DNA of 64,000 nt. It comes from Thermoplasmata archaeon (lineage in GTDB: Archaea; Thermoplasmatota; Thermoplasmata; GCA-020350865). Below the pieces are notes generated by a model that worked only from the letters and a program-made list of their open reading frames with translations, did not search any database and was not told where the DNA came from. The first letter of the stretch is position 1, and each line of letters begins with the position of its first letter. Both the position numbers and the translations under genes were made by a program. The stretch spans positions 64,001 to 128,000 of the forward strand of contig CP070751.1 in the NCBI GenBank assembly GCA_020348445.1, given 5' to 3'. Shown here one piece after another: positions 1-63,999 of the stretch.

Positions 1-1596
1 GTCAAGATCGCTTTTCGATTCAGTAAGTTGGCTCTGGCTAGTCCCATAATCGATTATGCTGTTGGCCTTTTTGTGAGTGAGCCAGTTGATGGTGGCTGTT
101 ATGCCGCTCACCTGAACAGAGATGTCAGTGATAATTGGCGGTCTATCATCGTACTCCTGTGTCATTAAGGTTGCCATGTACGCATCGACAATCCCCCAAC
201 CAAAATCTTCGTTGTATTTATCGCTTTGTTCGGGATCGTATGGATCACCTCTTGCCTCGGCTGTTTCATGAAGAATCCATATCACTTCATCAGGTGTCAG
301 GTTGGGTGCAACCTCGAGCATCATGGCCACCACACCAGCCACATGCGGTGCAGCAAAGGACGTGCCGCTTGCCTCGATTCCAGTTGGAAGCCCGTACCGT
401 TTATAGCTGTTGCGCGTGGGTGCTGTTATGAACTGTCCAGGTGCTGAGATGTCGGGTTTTAGGGCACCGTCCACCCTGGGACCCCTGCTGGAAGAAACGG
501 CTAGTGTATCGTCATCCCGTGATATTGTTTCCTGATCAAAAACCGAAGCAACTACTATTACCTTATCGGGCCAGGCTGTTACACTTGGCGGAGGATTATT
601 TGGCCCGTCGTTACCAGCAGATGTCACAACAATGATTCCAGATTCAGCTGCTGCAGCAGCCGCTTCTCCGGGTGTTCCGTCTATGTCTGAGCTTATGGAA
701 ATCACATCGATCCCATCATATTCATCTGGTTGATCCGGCCAATCAGTGTCCTTGTAATCGATAACCCATTGAATTGATCGCGTCATCTGATCTGATGTGG
801 CTCCAAGATTAATTGAATATTGAACATCTATGATCTTCGCATCTGTTGCCACGCCCATAAAGTCAGGCTCTCCATCCAGGTCCAAATCTGTTGTACCTCC
901 TGTCCCCAAGGCGATGCCGGCACAGTACGTACCATGCCCTACCACATCATTTGGATTGTAGGTCCCGTCCTTTGATGTGGCATCTTCTTCGAATGAGACA
1001 CCGGCCACAAATTTACCCATTAATGACTCGTGATACTCATCCACACCTGTGTCGATGATGGCGATATTGATTCCCTTTCCAGAGTAACCCAATGTCCATG
1101 CCGTGTTGGGGGAATATTCTGTGGAGTTTCGGGCCTTGATTGCCGGGTTACTAACATCCAGATGAGGTTCGATTGGTAATTGAAGTTCTATCATTCCCAC
1201 CCCGGGTAATTGGCGAAGTCTCATGATGTCTTTCAAATGGACATCTCTTGCCGAAATGGTGTTGATGAACTCAAAGACGTACTTCAGTTCTAAATCGAAT
1301 TCTGTGACTATTTCTGAATCTGATTGTTTTAGTTCTCGCTCGTATTTTAAGTAAATCGGCACCCGCTCATTTAAATTGGATGCGATTTTTTCATCTATTA
1401 AATCGTCGATACCGTTGCGATTTTTATCCCTTTCCCAATGCTCCCACCAGAAATCATTGGATGATTCGTCCCCAAAATCGGAGTCGATGGCATCACTTGA
1501 AATTGCCACTGAAAAGCTCGATGACAGGAGCATTATTGAAAATAACCAAAACACTGCAAGAACAGTTTTTTGCATTTTGTACACCTTTTTACCCAT
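1..1596 (-). CDS. Secreted S8 (subtilisin-family) serine peptidase, 3'-partial (runs off the window start)
   Basis: Hand translation of the minus strand gives MGKKVYKMQKTVLAVFWLFSIMLLSSSFSVAIS (signal peptide) and a propeptide. The catalytic motifs follow: IIDTG (Asp codon 1051-1053), GHGTYCAGIA (His 934-936), SAGN and GTSFAAPHVAG (Ser 358-360), then a beta-rich C-terminal domain. There is no stop codon before position 1, so the ORF track omitted it. An alternative start is ATG 1575. Confidence 0.92.
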   Translation of the reverse strand, partial: MGKKVYKMQKTVLAVFWLFSIMLLSSSFSVAISSDAIDSDFGDESSNDFWWEHWERDKNRNGIDDLIDEKIASNLNERVPIYLKYERELKQSDSEIVTEFDLELKYVFEFINTISARDVHLKDIMRLRQLPGVGMIELQLPIEPHLDVSNPAIKARNSTEYSPNTAWTLGYSGKGINIAIIDTGVDEYHESLMGKFVAGVSFEEDATSKDGTYNPNDVVGHGTYCAGIALGTGGTTDLDLDGEPDFMGVATDAKIIDVQYSINLGATSDQMTRSIQWVIDYKDTDWPDQPDEYDGIDVISISSDIDGTPGEAAAAAAESGIIVVTSAGNDGPNNPPPSVTAWPDKVIVVASVFDQETISRDDDTLAVSSSRGPRVDGALKPDISAPGQFITAPTRNSYKRYGLPTGIEASGTSFAAPHVAGVVAMMLEVAPNLTPDEVIWILHETAEARGDPYDPEQSDKYNEDFGWGIVDAYMATLMTQEYDDRPPIITDISVQVSGITATINWLTHKKANSIIDYGTSQSQLTESKSDLD

Positions 1597-2643: not shown

Positions 2644-2834
2644 GATACCGCCGTAATTATGTCTAGATTGAAAATAATGTTAAAACTGTATATTATGTTT
2701 TTGGTTGACATGTTGACCTATCCAATTTAATTTTGCTTTTTCCTCTGCTATATCGTTTTCCCTTTATGTTTATTTACCCAAATCAACCCAATCTCTTATA
2801 TATAAAACCGTTCATTTCCGTTTTCTGTGAGAAA

Positions 2835-4733
2835 TTGAAGAACAACATCTACAGTGTAATTGGCATGGGCCTTCTGTTTGTGATCGTTCAGATCATTGCA
2901 ATTGCCATTGCACCCATATACAGCCATACCCAATCCGAGGCCATGGGCGGCAGGGAGACCATCGAAAATCCCAGCTTCGCCTTCTTCTATCTTGGTATCA
3001 TACTTCTGTTCACGTTCGTTATATTGTGGATAGCAAAGCGCAAGAAGGAGAAGTTCATCAAAGTCCTTATTCTGGCGGCTATCTTCATGACAATGGTTTA
3101 CCTTTTCATACCACTTAATATCGCTATTATGTATCCGTCCTCTGGGGATGGATGGAAATTCACGGAAGTGGACGCTGATGTAGTTGCCCTTGAGGCCGAG
3201 GATATTGATGGCGATGGTGTAATCGAGATAATTGCAGGCTGCGCTGACAATAGGATCAGGGTCTATGAGAGTGAGAACCACACTCTTGAGTGGGAGAGCG
3301 GAGATTTAGGTTCCAACATAACACAAATATTGGCCGATAATTTGGATAATGATGAATTTTTTGAAATTGCAGTTGTTTGCGATACCATTAATGTATTTTC
3401 TGGGGAGAACTTATCAAACAATTGGACTCTTGGCCCCGCAAATCTCAGCATCGTCGCAGCTTATGATTTGAATGCAAATGGAACATCTGAACTCATAGTG
3501 GGAACAGAGAATGCGAGCATAATGATATTCGAGTCTGGGTTGCTTGTAAGGGAGATCAACGTCTCGTCAAATCTGCACAATATTTCGCATCTTGACACAA
3601 CTGATGACGGGCAGATAGTTGCCGCCGATAATACGACAATTATATTACTTGATCCCGCAACTGAAGAAATCTTGCTTAAAATAACTGAAAGGGAGGAGAT
3701 AAATGCACTTTTGGTGGTTCATGATCCCTCAGGCGAGGATAACTTAATTGTTGCCGATGCCAACAGGGTTTACTTTTATAACCTGGCCAGTTCGGAATTT
3801 GTCAGGCGTGGTCCCAAGTTCCGCGATGTCGAGGCTATGTACCTTGAGTATTACTCCATTCCAGATTATAAGGATGATATCCCGGATGTCATCGCATTCG
3901 GTGATGATACCGTTTACTTCTCTCCTGATTTGCTGAAAGAACGTGATTCTTATTATTACCTGAGGTTCAGATACGATGTTCACTCGATACTTAGCAAGGA
4001 CCTGGACGCAGACGGTGACAATGAGATGATTATGGGTGTGGATGAAGGTTACAGGCACACGTCCATCGTATTTGGCGAGGGGGCGAACATGGCGCTGCCC
4101 ATAATCATCGCCATCGTCATCGCCTTTTTGCTCACACTAATAGTTCACAAGTATCCTGAATGGTATGTAGTGGACGCTGTTGGTCTTGTCATGGCTATAG
4201 GAGCAACTGTTATACTGGGGGTCACATTTGCGATTCTTCCTGCCATTGTTCTTCTTCTGGTCCTTGCCATATATGACGCCATATCAGTTTACAAGACAAA
4301 GCACATGATAAGCCTGGCTGATAGTGTAATAGATTTAAATCTTCCTGTTTTGTTGGTTATTCCAAAGAAGCTGGGTTACTCATTTAGAAAGGAAAAGCCA
4401 CGTCTAAAGGAGCAGCTTGAATCAGGGGAAGAGAGGGAGGCAATGTTCATGGGACTTGGAGACATAGTCATACCGAGCCTTTTGATCGTGTCCGCCCTTT
4501 CCTTTTTGCCCGATACAAGCAGCGGGATTGGGGTACCAGGCAATCTTCTGGTTTGTATAGGAACCATGATAGGAATCTTGATTGGATTCTCGGTTTTGAT
4601 GAGATATGTCATGAAAGGCAATCCCCAGGCAGGCCTTCCCCTCCTGAACTCGGGAGCAATTACAGGCTATATAATCACCTACATCATCGTTTTTGGTAAT
4701 TTCGGATTCGGCTTCAACCTGAACTTCATATGA
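2835..4733 (+). CDS. Presenilin-family (A22, GxGD) intramembrane aspartyl protease with an inserted FG-GAP-like ectodomain
   Basis: YPEWYVVD, LAIYDAISV (Asp 4275-4277), MGLGD (Asp 4461-4463) and PQAGLP motifs match archaeal presenilin homologues; about 9 hydrophobic helices. The probable start is TTG 2835 (MKNNIYSVIG); the ORF track extends to 2733. Insertion at about 3132-4088. Confidence 0.92.
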   Translation: MKNNIYSVIGMGLLFVIVQIIAIAIAPIYSHTQSEAMGGRETIENPSFAFFYLGIILLFTFVILWIAKRKKEKFIKVLILAAIFMTMVYLFIPLNIAIMYPSSGDGWKFTEVDADVVALEAEDIDGDGVIEIIAGCADNRIRVYESENHTLEWESGDLGSNITQILADNLDNDEFFEIAVVCDTINVFSGENLSNNWTLGPANLSIVAAYDLNANGTSELIVGTENASIMIFESGLLVREINVSSNLHNISHLDTTDDGQIVAADNTTIILLDPATEEILLKITEREEINALLVVHDPSGEDNLIVADANRVYFYNLASSEFVRRGPKFRDVEAMYLEYYSIPDYKDDIPDVIAFGDDTVYFSPDLLKERDSYYYLRFRYDVHSILSKDLDADGDNEMIMGVDEGYRHTSIVFGEGANMALPIIIAIVIAFLLTLIVHKYPEWYVVDAVGLVMAIGATVILGVTFAILPAIVLLLVLAIYDAISVYKTKHMISLADSVIDLNLPVLLVIPKKLGYSFRKEKPRLKEQLESGEEREAMFMGLGDIVIPSLLIVSALSFLPDTSSGIGVPGNLLVCIGTMIGILIGFSVLMRYVMKGNPQAGLPLLNSGAITGYIITYIIVFGNFGFGFNLNFI

Positions 4734-4742
4734 GGTGGGAAA

Positions 4743-5378
4743 ATGAGGATATTGGCTATTGCAGATGTCCATGGCTCAAAAGAGGCAAGAAAGAAAGTTG
4801 ATGCCCAGATAAGGGATTATATTCCAAACATCGTGATCGTGGATGGCGATATTACACAGTTCGGCCCCCCTGCATGGGCAGAGGAATTTCTAAACAGTAT
4901 TATGCTGAAGACATTGGCTTTACCAGGTAACTGCGATCCAAGGGGAGTTCTGGAGGCAATTGAGAACAGCCAGGCAATTCCCCTGCATGCCAAAAAAGTG
5001 GATGTCGGAGATTATGCTGTGGTTGGCCTGGGCGGCTCAAATGCCACACCTTTTGGCACACCCTTTGAGCTTTCAGAGGATGAGATATACAGTGCCTTGG
5101 ATGATCTCATGGTTGAGGGAGCTCTGCTGGTTGTCCATGCCCCACCGAAGGGGCATGTAGATAAAACCTCAAGCCAGACACACTCGGGAAGCCAGGCAAT
5201 CGCAGACATCATTTCCAAATACTCACCACCTCTTGTTATCTCTGCACATATACACGAGGCAAGAGGTGTGGAAAGAGAAGGGGCAACCACTTATGTGAAC
5301 CCCGGACCTGCTTCAAGGGGCTACGCAGCTGTTATAGATTTAAATGGTGAGGTAAAGGTCGAGCTGATCCAAAGCTAA
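4743..5378 (+). CDS. Calcineurin-like metallophosphoesterase (Icc-related)
   Basis: ADVHG, DGD, GNCD, VHAPP and AHIHE motifs; GGTGG RBS; starts 10 bp after the presenilin gene, so probably co-transcribed. Confidence 0.9.
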   Translation: MRILAIADVHGSKEARKKVDAQIRDYIPNIVIVDGDITQFGPPAWAEEFLNSIMLKTLALPGNCDPRGVLEAIENSQAIPLHAKKVDVGDYAVVGLGGSNATPFGTPFELSEDEIYSALDDLMVEGALLVVHAPPKGHVDKTSSQTHSGSQAIADIISKYSPPLVISAHIHEARGVEREGATTYVNPGPASRGYAAVIDLNGEVKVELIQS

Positions 5379-5564
5379 GGCTCCCCTATGTCCATATCTG
5401 GTAATTCAATGAGAATTTTGAGGGAGGATTGACTTGATACAAAGCTAAGGCTCCCCTATGTCCATATCTGGTAATTCAATGAGAATTATGAGGGGGGGTT
5501 GACTTGATACAAAGCTAAGGCTCCCCTATGACCCTATCTGGTAATTTAATTAGAATTTCGAGGG
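5365..5564. repeat. 70-bp tandem repeat, about 2.8 copies, overlapping the metallophosphoesterase stop codon
   Basis: aaagctaaggctcccctatg starts at 5371, 5441 and 5511 (period 70). Copies 1 and 2 differ at 3 of 70 positions; copy 3 differs from copy 1 at 5 of 54 positions. Confidence 0.95.
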
Positions 5565-8383: not shown

Positions 8384-8434
8384 TTTTTTTCTGTTTTATT
8401 AAAATTAGACATATATGATATTAAAAACAACATA

Positions 8435-8442
8435 TTTAAATA
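8435..8442 (+). promoter_or_regulatory. TATA box of a probable leaderless transcript
   Basis: TTTAAATA ends 27 bp before ATG 8469, the spacing typical of archaeal leaderless mRNAs. Confidence 0.5.
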
Positions 8443-8468
8443 CCAATAAAAATCTTCAAAATTCGAAG

Positions 8469-8966
8469 ATGAACATGGCAAAGATATCTGGTTTTTCAGT
8501 TGAAGAGGGCAAGATACCCAAGCTGTCTTTGAGAGACTGGGTCCTGGCGATAATCCAGGATAAAGAGAAAAGAAAGAACAAGGATGCCATCTTCATAATG
8601 AACGAGGTTTTTATTTTTGTAAACGAAGTTGTACCGTCATTAAAATCTGAATTTGATTTCAAGAGCGCGTGGTGCGGTCCGTACAGCGAAAAGGTGGTAA
8701 AGAGTTTAGAGCATTTTATTGATGCAAAGGTCCTTGAGGTAAAGGAGAGCAAATCCACGGCAATAGGTTTTACCTATGAATTGACAGAGAGCGGTGCCAA
8801 GAAGGCATCCGAGATTACGTCAAAGCTTCCTGCTTCACTGAGGGACAAGATAGAGTTTTTAAAGACAGCGGTATCGCATATGGGCCCCACTGGAATGTTC
8901 CAGTACATATACTCGATATATCCTGAGTATGTGTTTCTGAGGGAGGGAGGAGAGAACATTGTATGA
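8469..8966 (+). CDS. Winged-helix protein resembling the DUF4065/SocA (Panacea)/YwgA-like family
   Basis: FDFKSAWCGPYSEKV...YELTESG...YIYSIYPEY pattern recalled from this family. The start is probably ATG 8469 or 8475 rather than 8415. Confidence 0.6.
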   Translation: MNMAKISGFSVEEGKIPKLSLRDWVLAIIQDKEKRKNKDAIFIMNEVFIFVNEVVPSLKSEFDFKSAWCGPYSEKVVKSLEHFIDAKVLEVKESKSTAIGFTYELTESGAKKASEITSKLPASLRDKIEFLKTAVSHMGPTGMFQYIYSIYPEYVFLREGGENIV

Positions 8967-9540
8967 CAGCATAATATGGATAGGGGTTATTATCTTCATA
9001 GCCTTGATTATCGCCTCCGTACTTTTTTATTTCCAGAATGAAAAATTCGATACAAAGTACAAGAAGAACATCGAGATCATAAGGGCTATCAAGGCCCAGA
9101 AGTTAAAGGATTTTGGTATGAAGTACTTTGAGGAGGAGGCTCTTGAGGTTAAAGCCAAATCAAAAAAGGAAGTTCCAAGTGGTGAGGACTTCAAGGACCT
9201 GGGAAAGAAGGCGCTTCGCTCTGGAAAGAACCTCAACAGGCTAACCAAGAAGGCAGCTGATCTGAAGATGTGGTATGATTACCAGCCCAGGGCAAAGGAT
9301 TTTTTGGTGAGTGCGGCCTTGTGGACTTTTCTTCTCGGTCTGATCTCCCTGGTGATCTGCCTCTCTATCTGGGCCGAGTTGAACAACGCGGGGGAGATAC
9401 GCTACTCAGGCTACCTGAGTTTTATCTGGATAATCATGGCAATTAATTTATTCAAGAATATTCTGAGGTATAACATAGTGACTACGAACATCAATAAACA
9501 CATGGATATGATAAGAGAGGGGGATGTGGAGAAGTTCTAA
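8959..9540 (+). CDS. Hypothetical membrane protein (about 3 TM), translationally coupled to the upstream gene
   Basis: TTG start with GGAGG RBS; 8-bp overlap with the upstream gene; one N-terminal TM, a basic soluble segment and two C-terminal TMs. Confidence 0.75.
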   Translation: MYDSIIWIGVIIFIALIIASVLFYFQNEKFDTKYKKNIEIIRAIKAQKLKDFGMKYFEEEALEVKAKSKKEVPSGEDFKDLGKKALRSGKNLNRLTKKAADLKMWYDYQPRAKDFLVSAALWTFLLGLISLVICLSIWAELNNAGEIRYSGYLSFIWIIMAINLFKNILRYNIVTTNINKHMDMIREGDVEKF

Positions 9541-59031: not shown

Positions 59032-62000
59032 CTAAGCTTCATCAGGAGGGGGCGGTGGCGCCCGTTTCTTAACTTCTTTTTTAGGTTCGGGCGGTGGTAA
59101 CTCTTCAGGTGGAATAGGCGGTGGTGCAGGTGGCGGTGTCTCATCTTCAATTATTTCAAATGTTTCAGAAGGAGCCTCTGGTTCAGCCTCTTGCAATGGA
59201 GGAGGAGATGGTGGTTTAGAAGGAGCTTTCTTGGCTGGAGCCTTCTTTTTCTTGGGTGGTTTGGCTCGAGGTTGAACAGGTTTTGCAGCAGCGGGGGGGG
59301 CTTCTTCTTTTGCTATGACCTGGGGTTCTTCTTGAGGTACTGTTGCCTGCATCGCAGATTGTGCCTCAAGGGCAAGCTGAAGTTGACCCCGGGCCTGATC
59401 CAAATCATTGATCCTTGTCAACAATTTCTGGTTCCTGCTTCTCTCCTTGGCAAATAGGGCACCCAAAATCACTGCCACAATTATTCCAATCAAGGCCAAA
59501 AAGAGCCATAAAACATAGGATTCATCAGAGGTTTCTTTCCATTTTGAGCTGTCCAACGGATAATCATCATTGGCATCGGACTTACCGTCGTTGTCGTCAT
59601 CCTCGTCGGTCTTGTCCCCGATACCGTCCCCGTCAGTATCCAAAGTTTCCTCAGGATCGTAGGGAAAGTCATCTTCGGAATCGATTACACCATCATCGTC
59701 ATCGTCATCATCTATGTTGTCTCCAAGACCATCTGAATCGGTATCTACCCATTCTGTGGGATTATTAGGGAATTCATCGATATCATCCGGTACGTTGTCC
59801 TGATCATCGTCAGGATCCTCGGAATCGAATAAACCATCACCATCAGAATCTATTTCTGGTTTCGCAGAGATAATATTGGACACTGATGAGCTTAAACCAG
59901 CATCGTCAACTGCCACGATAAAGTAGCTGTAGTTCTGCCCATTAATCAATCCCGAGTGATAATAGTAGGTTACGTCATGTGAAAATGTTTCTATCTTGTC
60001 ATAAACCTGCCCATCATCGCTGAAGTACAATTCGTAATGGCTAAAGTCCTCCTCAATATTTGGATTCCAGGTGATGTTCAAGGCTCCCCCTGTCTGGATT
60101 TTTGTATAGGTAAGTCCAGAAGTAGGCAAGGGAGGTGTTGTGTCCAAAACTGTGACGAACCATGAACTTGTGTTCCAATTTCCTGCAGAATCTGTTATGT
60201 TTACGGTCATGGTATATACTCCTGGATCATCATATGTATGAGTAACAACATCATCAGAGCCAAATAACTGGTTGCCATCGCCAAAGGTAAAGTGGTACGA
60301 TACAATTCCAACATTATCATCTGATTTTGATGCATTGAACTCGTACTCCACTTCCTCATGCATAGTATCCTCAAATTCAACATTCAAAGCGGGTCTCTCC
60401 TCATCCACCAACTTCACTTCTATGGCCACGGGATCGATGTTGGAGTTTCCTTGAGCGTCGTAGACTATCAGGGTTACTATGTAATTTCCAGGCTCTGTAA
60501 AAACATGTGTCGGGGAAATCCCTGTATAATCTGGATTGTTCCAATCAATGCCGTCGCTGTTATCAATGTCCCATAGGTAAGTTACGATACCAACGTTATC
60601 GTATGAGGCCGAGGCGTCGAATGTGTATGGCGTGTCCTCGTCTATAGTGTCATCTTCCCCAGCGTCTGCAAAGGGAGGCGTTATATCCAAAACCTCGATG
60701 GTAAGGGTGTTATGGTTCCAGTTGCCTGATGTATCAGTGACGTTCAAGGTGACAAGATATACCCCAGGTTCGGAATAGGTATGCAATGGCGAGCTCCCGC
60801 TGTGATCGGGATCGTCCCAATTCAAACCGTCGTTTATATCCATATCCCATGCATAGCTAAATATATCCACATTGTCGCTGGAAGCCGAAGCGTCGAAGGT
60901 ATAGGGTGACTCCTCATTCACTATGCCATCTGGTCCTGCATCGGCATTTGGAAGGGTTATATCCAAGACCGTTATTGTCACGGTGTCCAGGTTCCAATTT
61001 CCAGAGGTGTCGGTGACATTCAAGGTTACGCTGTAAGTCCCTGGCTCGGTGTATATATGATCAGGATCCCATTTGCTTGGGCCGCTTTCATCAGGATTGC
61101 TCCAATCGATGCCGTCACTCTCGTCAAAGTCCCAGGCATAACTTGCGATATCCACGTTATCACTTGAACCAGAGGCATCGAAGGTGTACGGTGATTCCTC
61201 ATCTATGGTGGTATCAGAGCCGGCATCTGCAGTGGGTTCTGTGACATCCAACACTGTAATATGAATTTCCGCCGTGTTCCAGTTTCCTTGTTCATCAGTG
61301 ACATTGAGTGTAACTGTGTATGTACCTGGTTCAGAATATTCATGACTTGGATTGGAGCCAGTGTAATCTGGTGTCACCCAATCAAGACCGTCGCTTGCAT
61401 TAATATCCCATTTGTATTCCACGACATCCACGTTATCAAATGAGGATAAGCCGTCAAAAATGTACGGTGTATCCTCGTCTACAGTGTCATCGGAGCCTGC
61501 ATCAGCAGTAGGTGATGTGACATCCAGAACTGTAATTTGGACAGTATCTGTGTTCCAGTTTCCTTCCTCGTCTGTGACATTCAATGTTATCACATATATT
61601 CCCGGCTCGTTGTATGTATGCATGGGATTCCATAAACTTGGACCTGAGTAATCGGGACTGACCCAGTCTACTCCATCGTTTTTATCTATATCCCAGGCAT
61701 AATTTACTATACCGACATCATCAGAGGATTTTGAAGCATCGAACTGATGAGGCAAATCCTCATCAATTGTTACATCATCACCTGCATCTGCAAATGGATT
61801 GCGCGCATCTATCACAGTTATGGTCAATGAATCGGTACCGCTGTTTCCTGCCTCATCAGTAACAGTCAAAACCACAATATACACACTAGGTGTGGTATAG
61901 GTATGAGACGGATTGGGTCCTGCATCGTATGCGAAGTTACCATCTCCAAATGTCCAATTGTAGAATTCGATTACGCCCGAGTTGTCTGAAGAAAGAGAGC

Positions 62001-63999
62001 CGTCAAAAAGATAGGCTGTATCGTTGTTAACAGAATCATCGGGCCCGGCATTTGCCAAAGGATCTGTTACGTCCAAAACTCTGATTGTCACGGTATCAGT
62101 TGTCCAATAGTCTGATACATCGGTGACTTTCAATGTCGCGATGTAAACACCTGGTTCCGAATATACATGAGATGGACTCACACCCAGATAGTCGGGAGTT
62201 ACCCAATCCACTCCGTCGCTTGCATCTATGTCCCATGCATAGGTGGCGATGCCCACATTGTCATCCGAGCCAGAGCCATCGAAGGTGTGAGATGTATCCT
62301 CATCTACAGTTGCATCGTCCCCTGCATGTGCAGTTGGAGGAGTCACGTCAAGGACAGTTATGGACAATGTGTCTGTGTCCGAGTTCCCTTCAGCATCTGT
62401 TACGTTCAAGGTTACAATGTATGTGTTGGGTGTCATGTATGTGTAAATCGGATTCGGTCCTGTCCGATCAGGTGTCGCCCAATCCAATCCATCACTTGCA
62501 TTCATATCCCACGCATAGTTGAAGATTCCAACATTATCTGAGGAAGCAGAGCCGTCAAAGACAACAGGTGAACCCTCATCTGTAACATTATCAGGGCCTG
62601 CATCTGCAGATGGAAATGTGATATCAATAACAGTTATCCACACGGTATCTATACCCGAATTTCCTGATAAATCCGTTACATTCAATGTAACTATATACAC
62701 ATCAGGCTGAGCATATTCATGGGAAGGTGAAGGATCGGTTCCATTGGAATAATTTCCATCTCCAAAGTCCCAGTTGTAGAATGCAATAGAACCCGAGTTG
62801 TCGTAAGAAAGAGTACCATCGAAAGTATAAGATGTATCTTCATCTACTGAATCATTTGGTCCTGCATCTGCCATAGGGGAGGTGACGTCAAATACAGTCA
62901 CATTGAGAATGTCCATACCCCATCCTCCATCTGCGTCAATCACCCTCAGTGTGACCACATAATCCCCAGGTGTATCATAAGTCCAATTTACTTCCATGCC
63001 CATTTTATCTGGAGAGCCCCAGTCCAAGCCATCTGAATCATCAATATCCCACAAATAATCGGTAATCCCAAAATCGTCCCAAGAGAGGGAGCCGTTGAAT
63101 ACTATGGGCAAATCCTCGTCTGTAGAATCGTCAAGCCCAGCATTAGCAATTGGGGGAAGGGAATCTGTCACCGTTATATTTACTATATCGGTGGCCCAGT
63201 TTCCATTGGCATCTGTGCATTTAAGTGTGGCAGTATAAAGACCAGAAAATGTGTATATATGGGTAGGGGTGATATTTGTACCGTTGTCATAGAATCCGTC
63301 GCCAAAACTCCAGTTGTACCATACTATACCCACATTGTCCCATGAGCCTGAACCGTCGAACATGTAAAGTGTGTTCTTCATTATGGAGCCGTCTAAACCT
63401 GCATCTACATGGGGTGGCTCGTTGTCCTTTACAGTGATTTGGACTACATCCGTATCTGTTATAGTGTCAGTATCAGTGATTCTCAAAGTCACATTATAGA
63501 CACCAGGTATTGTATATGTATATGAAGGTGATATTCCAGTCAAATCAGGGGGGCTGAAGTTCACACCATCACTATCGTCTATGTCCCATTCATAGATTGT
63601 TATGCCCTCAAAATCCCAAGAACCTGATCCATTGAAGTTGTAGGGTGTTCCTGCTGAGGCTGTATCATCAGGCCCGGCATCAGCTATGGGTAGATTGTTC
63701 TGGACACTGACAAGGACTGCAGAAAGCCAATTGCTGAAACCGCCGTTTGTATCCTCAAATCTCACCCTGAATTCATAAGGTCCTTCTGGTGCGCTGGCAT
63801 CGGGTGTGAAATTCACCTGCCAGAATCCAGATGGAGCTGTGCCTATATATGTCTGAGTTCCGAGATAAGTTGTATTCCATACTGAGGTACCAGGCTCTTT
63901 GTACTGGAAGTATGGGATCAAATCCTCTTCACTGTCCTCAGGATCTGAGCCGTTGGCTGTTATGTTCACCACCTGGCCACGGTAGATATCCAAGGCAGT
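59032..63999 (-). CDS. Large PKD-repeat surface protein with FN3, thrombospondin type-3-like repeats, TM and Pro-rich cytoplasmic tail; 5'-partial
   Basis: The frame is open to the window end. It contains 13 PKD-type units (ADAG...FDGSxSxDN..I..Y.W; about 60145-63699), an FN3-like unit, DxDGDG/DDDxDG repeats (59539-59850), the TM YVLWLFLALIGIIVAVILGALFA and a PPPAPPPIPP tail. Confidence 0.9.
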   Translation of the reverse strand, partial: TALDIYRGQVVNITANGSDPEDSEEDLIPYFQYKEPGTSVWNTTYLGTQTYIGTAPSGFWQVNFTPDASAPEGPYEFRVRFEDTNGGFSNWLSAVLVSVQNNLPIADAGPDDTASAGTPYNFNGSGSWDFEGITIYEWDIDDSDGVNFSPPDLTGISPSYTYTIPGVYNVTLRITDTDTITDTDVVQITVKDNEPPHVDAGLDGSIMKNTLYMFDGSGSWDNVGIVWYNWSFGDGFYDNGTNITPTHIYTFSGLYTATLKCTDANGNWATDIVNITVTDSLPPIANAGLDDSTDEDLPIVFNGSLSWDDFGITDYLWDIDDSDGLDWGSPDKMGMEVNWTYDTPGDYVVTLRVIDADGGWGMDILNVTVFDVTSPMADAGPNDSVDEDTSYTFDGTLSYDNSGSIAFYNWDFGDGNYSNGTDPSPSHEYAQPDVYIVTLNVTDLSGNSGIDTVWITVIDITFPSADAGPDNVTDEGSPVVFDGSASSDNVGIFNYAWDMNASDGLDWATPDRTGPNPIYTYMTPNTYIVTLNVTDAEGNSDTDTLSITVLDVTPPTAHAGDDATVDEDTSHTFDGSGSDDNVGIATYAWDIDASDGVDWVTPDYLGVSPSHVYSEPGVYIATLKVTDVSDYWTTDTVTIRVLDVTDPLANAGPDDSVNNDTAYLFDGSLSSDNSGVIEFYNWTFGDGNFAYDAGPNPSHTYTTPSVYIVVLTVTDEAGNSGTDSLTITVIDARNPFADAGDDVTIDEDLPHQFDASKSSDDVGIVNYAWDIDKNDGVDWVSPDYSGPSLWNPMHTYNEPGIYVITLNVTDEEGNWNTDTVQITVLDVTSPTADAGSDDTVDEDTPYIFDGLSSFDNVDVVEYKWDINASDGLDWVTPDYTGSNPSHEYSEPGTYTVTLNVTDEQGNWNTAEIHITVLDVTEPTADAGSDTTIDEESPYTFDASGSSDNVDIASYAWDFDESDGIDWSNPDESGPSKWDPDHIYTEPGTYSVTLNVTDTSGNWNLDTVTITVLDITLPNADAGPDGIVNEESPYTFDASASSDNVDIFSYAWDMDINDGLNWDDPDHSGSSPLHTYSEPGVYLVTLNVTDTSGNWNHNTLTIEVLDITPPFADAGEDDTIDEDTPYTFDASASYDNVGIVTYLWDIDNSDGIDWNNPDYTGISPTHVFTEPGNYIVTLIVYDAQGNSNIDPVAIEVKLVDEERPALNVEFEDTMHEEVEYEFNASKSDDNVGIVSYHFTFGDGNQLFGSDDVVTHTYDDPGVYTMTVNITDSAGNWNTSSWFVTVLDTTPPLPTSGLTYTKIQTGGALNITWNPNIEEDFSHYELYFSDDGQVYDKIETFSHDVTYYYHSGLINGQNYSYFIVAVDDAGLSSSVSNIISAKPEIDSDGDGLFDSEDPDDDQDNVPDDIDEFPNNPTEWVDTDSDGLGDNIDDDDDDDGVIDSEDDFPYDPEETLDTDGDGIGDKTDEDDDNDGKSDANDDYPLDSSKWKETSDESYVLWLFLALIGIIVAVILGALFAKERSRNQKLLTRINDLDQARGQLQLALEAQSAMQATVPQEEPQVIAKEEAPPAAAKPVQPRAKPPKKKKAPAKKAPSKPPSPPPLQEAEPEAPSETFEIIEDETPPPAPPPIPPEELPPPEPKKEVKKRAPPPPPDEA

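What the first reader, a model, noticed from the sequence alone, without database searches (positions are those of the whole stretch)
3132..4088. Presenilin homologue with a ~320-aa FG-GAP-like propeller ectodomain inserted between TM3 and TM4
Seen: the protein aligns by eye to the archaeal presenilin homologue pattern on both sides of a ~319-aa hydrophilic insert. The insert has about seven DxDxDG-type loops (DIDGDG, NLDNDE, DLNANG, DTTDDG, DPSGED, DYKDDIPD, DLDADGD) and many NxS/T sequons. The TM2-3 loop (AKRKKEK) and TM6-7 loop are basic, so the positive-inside rule puts the insert outside the cell with presenilin-like orientation. Established: the studied archaeal enzyme (Methanoculleus PSH/MCMJR1) has only a short loop here, and eukaryotic gamma-secretase uses the separate nicastrin ectodomain as a steric substrate gate. 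Inference: this may be a single-chain protease with a built-in substrate-selection or gating domain.
Basis: partly seen in the sequence, partly recalled or inferred. Interest (0 to 1): 0.8.

Follow-up and report, generated by a model that had tools for sequence, protein, structure and literature searches.

The report
Archaeal presenilin with built-in propeller ectodomain
An archaeal relative of presenilin, the membrane-embedded protease of Alzheimer's research, carries a seven-bladed propeller domain in one of its outward-facing loops; this subfamily does not seem to have been described, and the propeller may choose or gate the proteins the enzyme cuts.

Summary
The gene (window 2835/2865-4733, + strand) is a PF06550/PSH intramembrane aspartyl protease. 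Its YD, GLGD and PxAGLP motifs are invariant across 55 relatives. It aligns to the solved Methanoculleus PSH on both sides of a 313-residue insert (window 3141-4079) in the TM3-TM4 loop.

Three things put it outside the cell: homology to the presenilin topology, the positive-inside charge pattern, and 10 N-glycosylation sequons where 2.5 are expected (none in the core).

It is the only PSH gene in this roughly 5.2-Mb Thermoplasmatota genome. It is not a one-off. About 60 protein clusters carry a 260-400-residue insert at the same site, and 58 of 61 form one clade in a tree of the protease core. The form is still rare: 10 of 401 sampled genomes of the phylum, against 336 of 401 with any PSH. 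I found no paper describing it.

The proposed gating role, like nicastrin or the RseP PDZ domains, is plausible from the geometry but untested. Verdict: a real, apparently undescribed domain-insertion variant of a known protease family. Two earlier first-stage notes of this scan flagged this same stretch of the same genome.

The parts
2796..2807 (+). TATA-box-like element 27 nt upstream of the TTG start
   Evidence: Single match in the window; sequence context. Its role as a promoter is inferred from position only.
2835..4733 (+). Propeller-bearing PSH gene, 632 aa from TTG 2835 (622 aa from ATG 2865), stop codon included
   Evidence: ORF. The peptide KNNIYSV upstream of the ATG is conserved in at least 10 homologues, two of which have Leu at the ATG position, so the TTG at 2835 is the likelier start. 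The database holds a 632-aa form, P0002.
2865..3140 (+). Protease core, N part: TM1, outside loop HL1, TM2, basic inside loop RKKEK, TM3
   Evidence: PF06550 profile positions 3-84; aligns to PSH residues 13-101; hydropathy; helices 2-26, 36-59 and 62-89 in the model.
3141..4079 (+). 313-residue seven-bladed FG-GAP-type beta-propeller inserted in the TM3-TM4 outside loop
3156..3269 (+). Four-strand unit 1, the most conserved part of the insert together with the start of unit 2
   Evidence: Strand map. D21, D23, D25, G26 and E29 of the insert are invariant in clade A; conservation profile.
3285..3398 (+). Four-strand unit 2
3417..3533 (+). Four-strand unit 3
3540..3653 (+). Four-strand unit 4
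3666..3782 (+). Four-strand unit 5
3798..3923 (+). Four-strand unit 6
3954..4064 (+). Four-strand unit 7, whose DLDxDG loop is also kept in the distant insert clades
3201..3227 (+). Canonical calcium-type loop DIDGDGVIE (unit 1)
   Evidence: Regex match; present in all 14 clade A sequences checked.
3339..3365 (+). Near-canonical loop NLDNDEFFE (unit 2)
3465..3491 (+). Canonical loop DLNANGTSE (unit 3)
3999..4025 (+). Canonical loop DLDADGDNE (unit 7)
4080..4730 (+). Protease core, C part: TM4 to TM9
   Evidence: PF06550 profile positions 90-280; aligns to PSH residues 109-296; helices.
4272..4277 (+). YD motif with the first catalytic Asp (TM6)
   Evidence: Y470 and D471 are invariant in 55 sequences; aligned to YD of PSH.
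4452..4463 (+). GLGD (GxGD) motif with the second catalytic Asp (TM7)
   Evidence: G530, L531, G532 and D533 are invariant; aligned to GMGD of PSH.
4623..4640 (+). PQAGLP, the PAL-equivalent motif before TM9
   Evidence: P587, A589, G590, L591 and P592 are invariant; identical in PSH.
4743..5378 (+). Metallophosphoesterase gene 10 nt downstream, a linked neighbour within clade A only
   Evidence: Pfam Metallophos families. The same 211-aa gene sits 10 nt after the clade A homologue P0008. It is absent next to clade B and C genes. Any functional link is not shown.

Best explanation
The gene encodes a catalytically competent presenilin-homologue (PSH, MEROPS A22) intramembrane aspartyl protease with nine transmembrane helices. 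A seven-bladed, probably calcium-binding and N-glycosylated FG-GAP-type propeller has been spliced into its extracellular TM3-TM4 loop. Linkers of only about 6-9 residues hold the propeller directly on the outer face of the core, beside TM2/TM3. In gamma-secretase that is the region where the substrate helix docks and its ectodomain stub emerges. The most likely role is therefore a built-in extracellular substrate-selection module. It would either exclude membrane proteins with bulky ectodomains, or bind the stub or ectodomain of particular type-I substrates, before they are cut in the membrane. Shown here: the family, the intact active-site motifs, the insert position, the fold, the conservation and the distribution. 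Inferred: the outside location (strongly supported) and the selection or gating role (untested).
For: Family and active site: PF06550 scores 234 bits against a cut-off of 23.9. The match to PSH 4hyc is 1.9e-51 on both sides of the insert. YD, GLGD and PxAGLP are invariant in 55 sequences. It is the only PF06550 gene found in its genome, so it must supply whatever PSH does there.

Outside location: the insert sits in the loop homologous to the presenilin TM3-TM4 loop. K/R residues cluster in the TM2-3 and TM6-7 loops, while the insert has 64 D/E against 18 K/R. It holds 10 sequons against 2.5 expected, with none in the core; in clade A the range is 5-10 in the insert against 0-1 in the core.

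Selection on the insert: its length is kept at 312-325 residues and its identity at 40-56% within clade A. The first-blade stretch is nearly invariant. 58 of 61 insert-bearing proteins form one clade on the core tree.

Linkers: the TM3 helix ends at residue 89 and the first strand starts at 98. The last strand ends at 400 and the TM4 helix starts at 410.

Precedents: nicastrin acts as a steric gatekeeper, and substrate is proposed to enter through the TMD2/3/5 cavity (PMC6551803). The RseP PDZ tandem, a domain on the outer (periplasmic) side of the membrane, acts as a size-exclusion filter and gate (bioRxiv 10.1101/2022.01.31.478169).
Against: There is no functional data of any kind. Natural substrates of archaeal PSH are unknown (listed as 'Unknown' in PMC9263693). 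I could not read model coordinates or inter-domain error, and the full-length pTM is only 0.64, so the propeller's position over the substrate entry site is inferred from linker lengths, not shown. The propeller is not homologous to nicastrin or to PDZ domains. Only the first-blade calcium-type loop is conserved across clade A. In the distant clades the insert has diverged almost beyond recognition, which is odd for a precise docking surface but acceptable for a steric lid.
Confidence: 0.5

Rival explanations
1. The propeller is an envelope-anchoring, adhesion or scaffold domain, for example one that binds S-layer or surface glycoproteins. It would localise the protease or simply use it as a membrane anchor, with no effect on which substrates are cut.
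For: FG-GAP propellers are generic extracellular interaction modules. The insert's nearest sequence relatives outside the PSH family are blades in large multi-repeat proteins of 400-3200 aa. The genome gave 108 first-look candidates for the insert profile. The insert diverges fast between clades.
Against: The insert has kept the same intra-loop site and very short linkers across a whole clade. An anchor could sit at either terminus. The catalytic motifs remain invariant, and this is the only PSH found in the genome.
Confidence: 0.2
2. The propeller is a sensor of calcium or another extracellular ligand that switches the protease on or off allosterically through TM3 and TM4. This would be regulated intramembrane proteolysis controlled by the enzyme rather than by prior shedding of the substrate.
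For: There are three canonical DxDxDG loops and one near-canonical loop, and the first is invariant in clade A. The domain is wired directly into two helices of the core by short linkers.
Against: In integrin-type propellers such calcium sites are mostly structural (established knowledge, not tested here). The number of canonical loops varies from 1 to 4 among close relatives. No ligand pocket was identified.
Confidence: 0.15
3. The insert lies in the cytoplasm, or the gene is an assembly or annotation artefact or an inactive pseudo-protease.
For: Topology was not predicted with a dedicated program. The genome is a MAG-type assembly that is 81.7% complete with 3.8% contamination.
Against: The same in-frame architecture occurs in about 60 independent clusters from NCBI, JGI, ENA and Logan assemblies. 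The active-site motifs are invariant. Charge distribution and sequon enrichment both point outside.
Confidence: 0.03

Closest known systems
PSH / MCMJR1 of Methanoculleus marisnigri (PDB 4hyc, 4hyd, 4hyg, 4y6k; Pfam PF06550, MEROPS A22)
   Same: Same family. The nine-TM core is alignable end to end, with the same YD, GxGD and PxAGLP motifs. It is expected to act alone, without partner subunits.
   Different: PSH has about 8 residues between TM3 and TM4, whereas this protein has a folded propeller of about 313 residues there. Canonical PSHs of the same phylum are 290-340 aa.
[quoted passage not shown]
   Same: It has a presenilin-type catalytic core topped on the extracellular side by a large glycosylated ectodomain. 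In gamma-secretase that ectodomain keeps out substrates with long ectodomains (PMC6551803).
   Different: Nicastrin is a separate single-pass subunit with an unrelated fold. Here the ectodomain is a propeller within the same chain. No nicastrin family appeared among the Pfam hits for this protein. This is an analogy in architecture, not homology, and the function is untested.
Site-2 protease RseP with its periplasmic PDZ tandem
   Same: [quoted passage not shown]
   Different: It differs in catalytic class (zinc metalloprotease, M50), in membrane fold and in the fold of the inserted domain.
Eukaryotic SPPL2 proteases with an N-terminal lumenal PA domain (recalled from memory, not checked here)
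   Same: They are A22-family GxGD proteases that carry their own glycosylated ectodomain.
   Different: The PA domain is N-terminal rather than inserted in a loop. SPP-type enzymes have the opposite membrane orientation and cut type-II substrates.
FG-GAP / BBS-type seven-bladed propellers (integrin alpha head, BBS1/2/7/9, ITFG2)
   Same: Same fold, repeat type and DxDxDG loops.
   Different: Those are free-standing or N-terminal domains. I found none reported inside a polytopic protease.

Membership tests
PSH / presenilin-homologue intramembrane aspartyl protease (PF06550, MEROPS A22) | Profile match above the curated cut-off | tested here: met
   PF06550 scores 234.4 bits against a cut-off of 23.9, in two stretches. 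Peptidase_A22B scores 39.1 against 23.3.
PSH / presenilin-homologue intramembrane aspartyl protease (PF06550, MEROPS A22) | YD motif in TM6 and GxGD motif in TM7 (the two catalytic aspartates) | tested here: met
   Y470-D471 and G530-L531-G532-D533 are invariant in 55 sequences and align to the PSH motifs.
PSH / presenilin-homologue intramembrane aspartyl protease (PF06550, MEROPS A22) | PAL-type motif before TM9 | tested here: met
   NPQAGLP is identical to the PSH motif and invariant in the alignment.
PSH / presenilin-homologue intramembrane aspartyl protease (PF06550, MEROPS A22) | Nine transmembrane helices with a presenilin-like orientation | tested here: met
   The model has nine long helices. 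Hydropathy peaks are and the positive-inside pattern. Orientation is inferred, not measured.
PSH / presenilin-homologue intramembrane aspartyl protease (PF06550, MEROPS A22) | Intramembrane proteolytic activity | not testable with these tools
   Needs expression and a cleavage assay.
FG-GAP-type seven-bladed beta-propeller | Pfam FG-GAP-class repeat matches | tested here: met
   BBS2_Mid scores 48.7 bits against a cut-off of 27, and FG-GAP scores 22.2 against 22.1. FG-GAP_3 (26.4 against 26.9) and Beta-prop_BBS7 (26.7 against 27) fall just below their cut-offs.
FG-GAP-type seven-bladed beta-propeller | Seven four-stranded blades forming a closed propeller | tested here: met
FG-GAP-type seven-bladed beta-propeller | Calcium binding by the DxDxDG loops | not testable with these tools
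   Three canonical motifs and one relaxed motif are present. Binding was not tested.
Nicastrin-type substrate gate of gamma-secretase | Homology to nicastrin | tested here: not met
   The Pfam scan of the whole protein at E up to 1 lists no nicastrin family. The insert is a propeller by fold.
Nicastrin-type substrate gate of gamma-secretase | Steric exclusion of substrates with long ectodomains | not testable with these tools
   Needs cleavage assays with substrates of graded ectodomain length, with and without the propeller.

The most novel reading that the evidence does not exclude
The propeller-PSH is a natural single-chain counterpart of gamma-secretase working in an archaeal regulated-intramembrane-proteolysis pathway. 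Its substrates would be the type-I giant surface proteins encoded 5 kb away: nine tandem paralogues, each with a signal peptide, a huge ectodomain, one C-terminal TM helix and a conserved cytoplasmic tail of about 95 residues. After the ectodomain is shed, perhaps by the secreted S8 subtilase encoded just upstream, the propeller would recognise or size the remaining stub, and the core would release the conserved tail into the cytoplasm as a signal.
Probability: 0.07. Interest if true: 0.85.

Novelty: new variant of a known kind. Interest (0 to 1): 0.6.

Why it matters
PSH is the main structural and mechanistic stand-in for presenilin. Two things about it remain unknown: its natural substrates, and how a stand-alone presenilin selects them. 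A clade of PSH enzymes with an ectodomain wired into the loop beside the substrate-docking helices offers a one-polypeptide system for asking whether an extracellular lid is enough to impose substrate selection like that of gamma-secretase. It also offers a soluble bait, the propeller, for fishing out native archaeal substrates. Finally, it shows that the solution of placing an ectodomain over an intramembrane protease, seen in nicastrin and in the RseP PDZ domains, has probably arisen a third time, in a third fold.

Tried and rejected
1. Docking the propeller (alignment A3) against the two core pieces (A6, A7) as separate chains with complex prediction gave 'no answer' (score 0.00, controls not run). 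I do not use it either way.

2. The search for related loci with the diverse insert alignment A2 failed because no stretch was conserved enough, so organism names from genome contigs were not obtained. The listing of cluster members returned no names either. The taxonomy therefore rests on the few named hits (Methanomassiliicoccales, Thermoplasmata and Thermoplasmatota MAGs) and on the anonymous phylum sample.

3. BLAST of the insert against the window's giant surface proteins and its subtilase found nothing at E up to 1, so the insert is not a recent copy of a neighbour.

4. I looked for a conserved operon partner. Only clade A keeps the downstream metallophosphoesterase.

5. I compared the outside loops of the core between insert-bearing and canonical PSHs to look for a docking signature. 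Only a clade-A-specific 3-residue addition in HL1 turned up, and nothing was shared by all insert-bearers.

6. Profile comparison of the clade A insert with the P0082-P0090 group was not significant (probability 8%), so the fold of those inserts remains unassigned.

7. Ten text searches found no paper on a PSH with a propeller. The one dedicated survey of archaeal intramembrane aspartyl proteases (Raut, Glass and Lieberman, Proteins 2021; 89:232) is not in the library, so it could not be checked.

8. Model coordinates and inter-domain error are not exposed, so I could not measure where the propeller sits over the core.

Full report
**1. What is there**

The window holds one long ORF at 2733-4733 on the + strand.

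The start is probably the TTG at 2835, which gives 632 aa. The peptide KNNIYSV that precedes the first ATG (2865) is conserved in at least ten homologues. Two of these have Leu where this gene has that Met. A TATA-like element sits 27 nt upstream of the TTG. Residue numbers below count from the ATG at 2865 (the 622-aa form).

**2. Family**

Pfam gives PF06550 (the archaeal presenilin homologue/SPP family) at E 2.5e-69, 234 bits against a cut-off of 23.9. The match is in two stretches separated by the insert.

Against PDB sequences, the only protease match is the Methanoculleus presenilin homologue PSH (4hyc, 4hyd, 4hyg, 4y6k; E 1.9e-51).
- Residues 2-93 align to PSH 13-101 (TM1-TM3).
- Residues 418-613 align to PSH 109-296 (TM4-TM9).
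- PSH therefore has about eight residues where this protein has about 320.

In an alignment of 55 full-length insert-bearing relatives, Y470-D471, G530-L531-G532-D533 and P587/A589-G590-L591-P592 are invariant. The enzyme should therefore be active. A whole-genome search finds no second PF06550 gene in this 5.16-Mb assembly, which is 81.7% complete.

**3. The insert**

I place the insert at residues 93-405 (window 3141-4079).
- An AlphaFold2 model of the whole protein (pLDDT 83.8, pTM 0.64) shows nine long helices and an all-beta block of 28 strands.
- The insert modelled alone reaches pLDDT 89.3 and pTM 0.87, again with 28 strands, which is seven four-stranded units.
- The ESM Atlas returns FG-GAP/BBS2_Mid clusters at TM 0.74-0.85.
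- Pfam hits on the insert point the same way: BBS2_Mid 9e-13, FG-GAP_3, FG-GAP and the BBS7 propeller.

Each of the seven units carries an acidic loop at the equivalent position. Three fit the calcium-type consensus, one nearly fits, and three are degenerate. Only the first loop is invariant in the close clade.

**4. Which side of the membrane**

I had no dedicated topology predictor. Three independent lines agree that the insert is outside.
- The loop is the homologue of the presenilin/PSH TM3-TM4 loop, which is extracellular in the established topology.
- K/R residues cluster in the loops predicted to be inside: RKKEK between TM2 and TM3, and ten K/R between TM6 and TM7. The short outside loops have almost none, and the insert is strongly acidic, with 64 D/E against 18 K/R.
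- The insert has 10 NxS/T sequons against 2.5 +/- 1.4 in composition-matched shuffles (0 of 5000 shuffles reach 10). The 305-residue core has none. The same contrast holds across clade A, with 5-10 in the insert against 0-1 in the core.

The linkers are short. The TM3 helix ends at residue 89 and the first strand starts at 98. The last strand ends at 400 and the TM4 helix starts at 410. The propeller must therefore sit directly on the outer face of the core.

**5. How widespread it is**

A search of 5.8 billion proteins found about 65 clusters of 580-750 aa with the PSH core. The few that carry names are Methanomassiliicoccales, Thermoplasmata or Thermoplasmatota MAGs. I mapped the core pieces onto each hit to measure the TM3-TM4 loop.

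| Group | Loop length (residues) | Similarity of insert to the window's |
|---|---|---|
| Clade A (close relatives) | 312-325 | 40-56% identity |
| Clade B | 330-356 | 20-27% identity, E down to 1e-21 |
| Further proteins (clade C and others) | 261-404 | little or none detectable |
| Canonical PSH | about 0-10 | no insert |

- A profile comparison of clade A and clade C inserts gives E 7e-5 at 63% probability. The first-blade Trp and the last-blade DLDGDG loop align across all of them.
- One more group (P0082-P0090) could not be linked by sequence.
- On a tree of the protease core alone (198 sequences, FastTree), 58 of 61 insert-bearers form one clade. The trait needs only three changes, and a single origin is not excluded. 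The three outliers sit on long branches.
- Canonical 300-320-aa PSHs from Thermoplasmata are 57-62% identical to this core.
- In an even sample of 401 genomes of the phylum, 336 have a PSH. Only 10 have the propeller insert. These belong to six anonymous families with genomes of 2.2-5.2 Mb, and none of the other sampled genomes of the window's own class has it. That search scored only the top five candidates per genome, so a few may have been missed.

**6. Origin of the insert**

Outside the PSH subfamily, the best sequence matches of the insert are blades in large multi-repeat proteins (E 1e-26 and weaker), mostly to its first two to three blades. It is not a copy of any neighbouring gene.

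**7. Function**

Nothing here tests function. The physiological role and targets of the archaeal enzyme are listed as unknown in the 2022 review PMC9263693.

The arrangement has two precedents.
- In gamma-secretase, the nicastrin ectodomain covers the presenilin core and keeps out type-I proteins with long ectodomains. Substrate is proposed to enter through the TMD2/TMD3/TMD5 cavity (PMC6551803).
- In RseP, a PDZ tandem on the periplasmic side of the membrane acts as a size-exclusion filter and gate (bioRxiv 10.1101/2022.01.31.478169).

Here the propeller is tethered to the outer ends of TM3 and TM4 by linkers of about 6-9 residues. That puts it where a substrate's juxtamembrane stub would emerge. 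I therefore rank a substrate-selection module, either a steric lid or a binding exosite, as the most likely role, at about 0.5.

The rivals are an envelope anchor or adhesion module (0.2), a calcium or ligand sensor that switches the enzyme (0.15), and an artefact or cytoplasmic location (0.03). The docking job on separated domains returned no verdict.

**8. Context**

In clade A, a 211-aa metallophosphoesterase gene follows 10 nt downstream, both here and at the P0008 locus. Clades B and C have other neighbours.

Five kilobases away begins a run of nine paralogous giant type-I surface proteins. Each has a shared signal peptide, one C-terminal TM helix and a conserved cytoplasmic tail of about 95 residues. 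Tail-like modules occur in 31 of 401 sampled genomes. That includes 7 of the 10 genomes with a propeller-PSH, and the three strongest hits outside this genome are all in such genomes. This pattern is confounded by shared ancestry and is only a lead. It underlies the low-probability 'archaeal RIP pathway' reading.

**9. Novelty and verdict**

The parts are known, namely PSH and the FG-GAP propeller. The idea of an ectodomain guarding an intramembrane protease is also known. The combination is a propeller inserted inside a presenilin-family core, conserved as a subfamily. It did not turn up in ten full-text searches. The one dedicated survey of archaeal enzymes of this family (Raut et al. 2021) could not be read. 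I rate it a new variant of a known kind, with interest 0.6. The structure-level claims are secure and the mechanism is open.

Two earlier first-stage notes of this scan describe the same stretch of this genome and agree with the observation.

Noticed in passing
window 9594-58265, minus strand: Nine tandem paralogous giant genes (1212-2653 aa). Each has a near-identical signal peptide, a huge ectodomain (Big_5 and other Ig-like domains in the one scanned), one C-terminal TM helix and a conserved cytoplasmic tail of about 95 residues ending in an acidic stretch. Two more tail-bearing genes lie elsewhere in the genome. Tail-like modules occur in 31 of 401 phylum genomes, including 7 of the 10 that have the propeller-PSH.
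   Followed up: partly
window 4743-5378 (+): A calcineurin-like metallophosphoesterase gene starts 10 nt after the PSH stop. The pairing is conserved in clade A (L013). One database protein, P0107 (464 aa), carries both PSH and Metallophos Pfam domains, which may be a fusion or a frameshift.
   Followed up: partly
window 5365-5564: A 70-bp unit is repeated 2.9 times in tandem (92% matches), starting in the last codons of the phosphoesterase gene. An earlier first-stage note had already flagged it.
   Followed up: partly
window 1-1596 (-): A secreted S8 subtilase with a signal peptide runs off the window's start. It lies about 1.2 kb upstream of the PSH gene, on the opposite strand.
   Followed up: no
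window 59032-63993 (-): A further giant ORF (1653 aa, cut by the window end) has a Pro/Lys/Ala/Glu-rich C-terminus unlike the tails of the nine paralogues.
   Followed up: no
phylum sample, anonymous family f2: PSH is nearly universal in the phylum sample (336 of 401 genomes). It was found in only 1 of 48 genomes of family f2, which belongs to the window's own class and consists mostly of nearly complete 1.3-1.9-Mb genomes.
   Followed up: no
P0115 (397 aa): A different PSH variant: the protease core is followed by a right-handed beta-helix/NosD-like domain. It may be truncated. This suggests that ectodomain acquisition by PSH happened more than once.
   Followed up: no
window 8415-9540 (+): Two small overlapping genes. 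The first has a weak hit to an ABC-3C middle-component family (E 5e-4, below the cut-off). The second has no Pfam hit.
   Followed up: no
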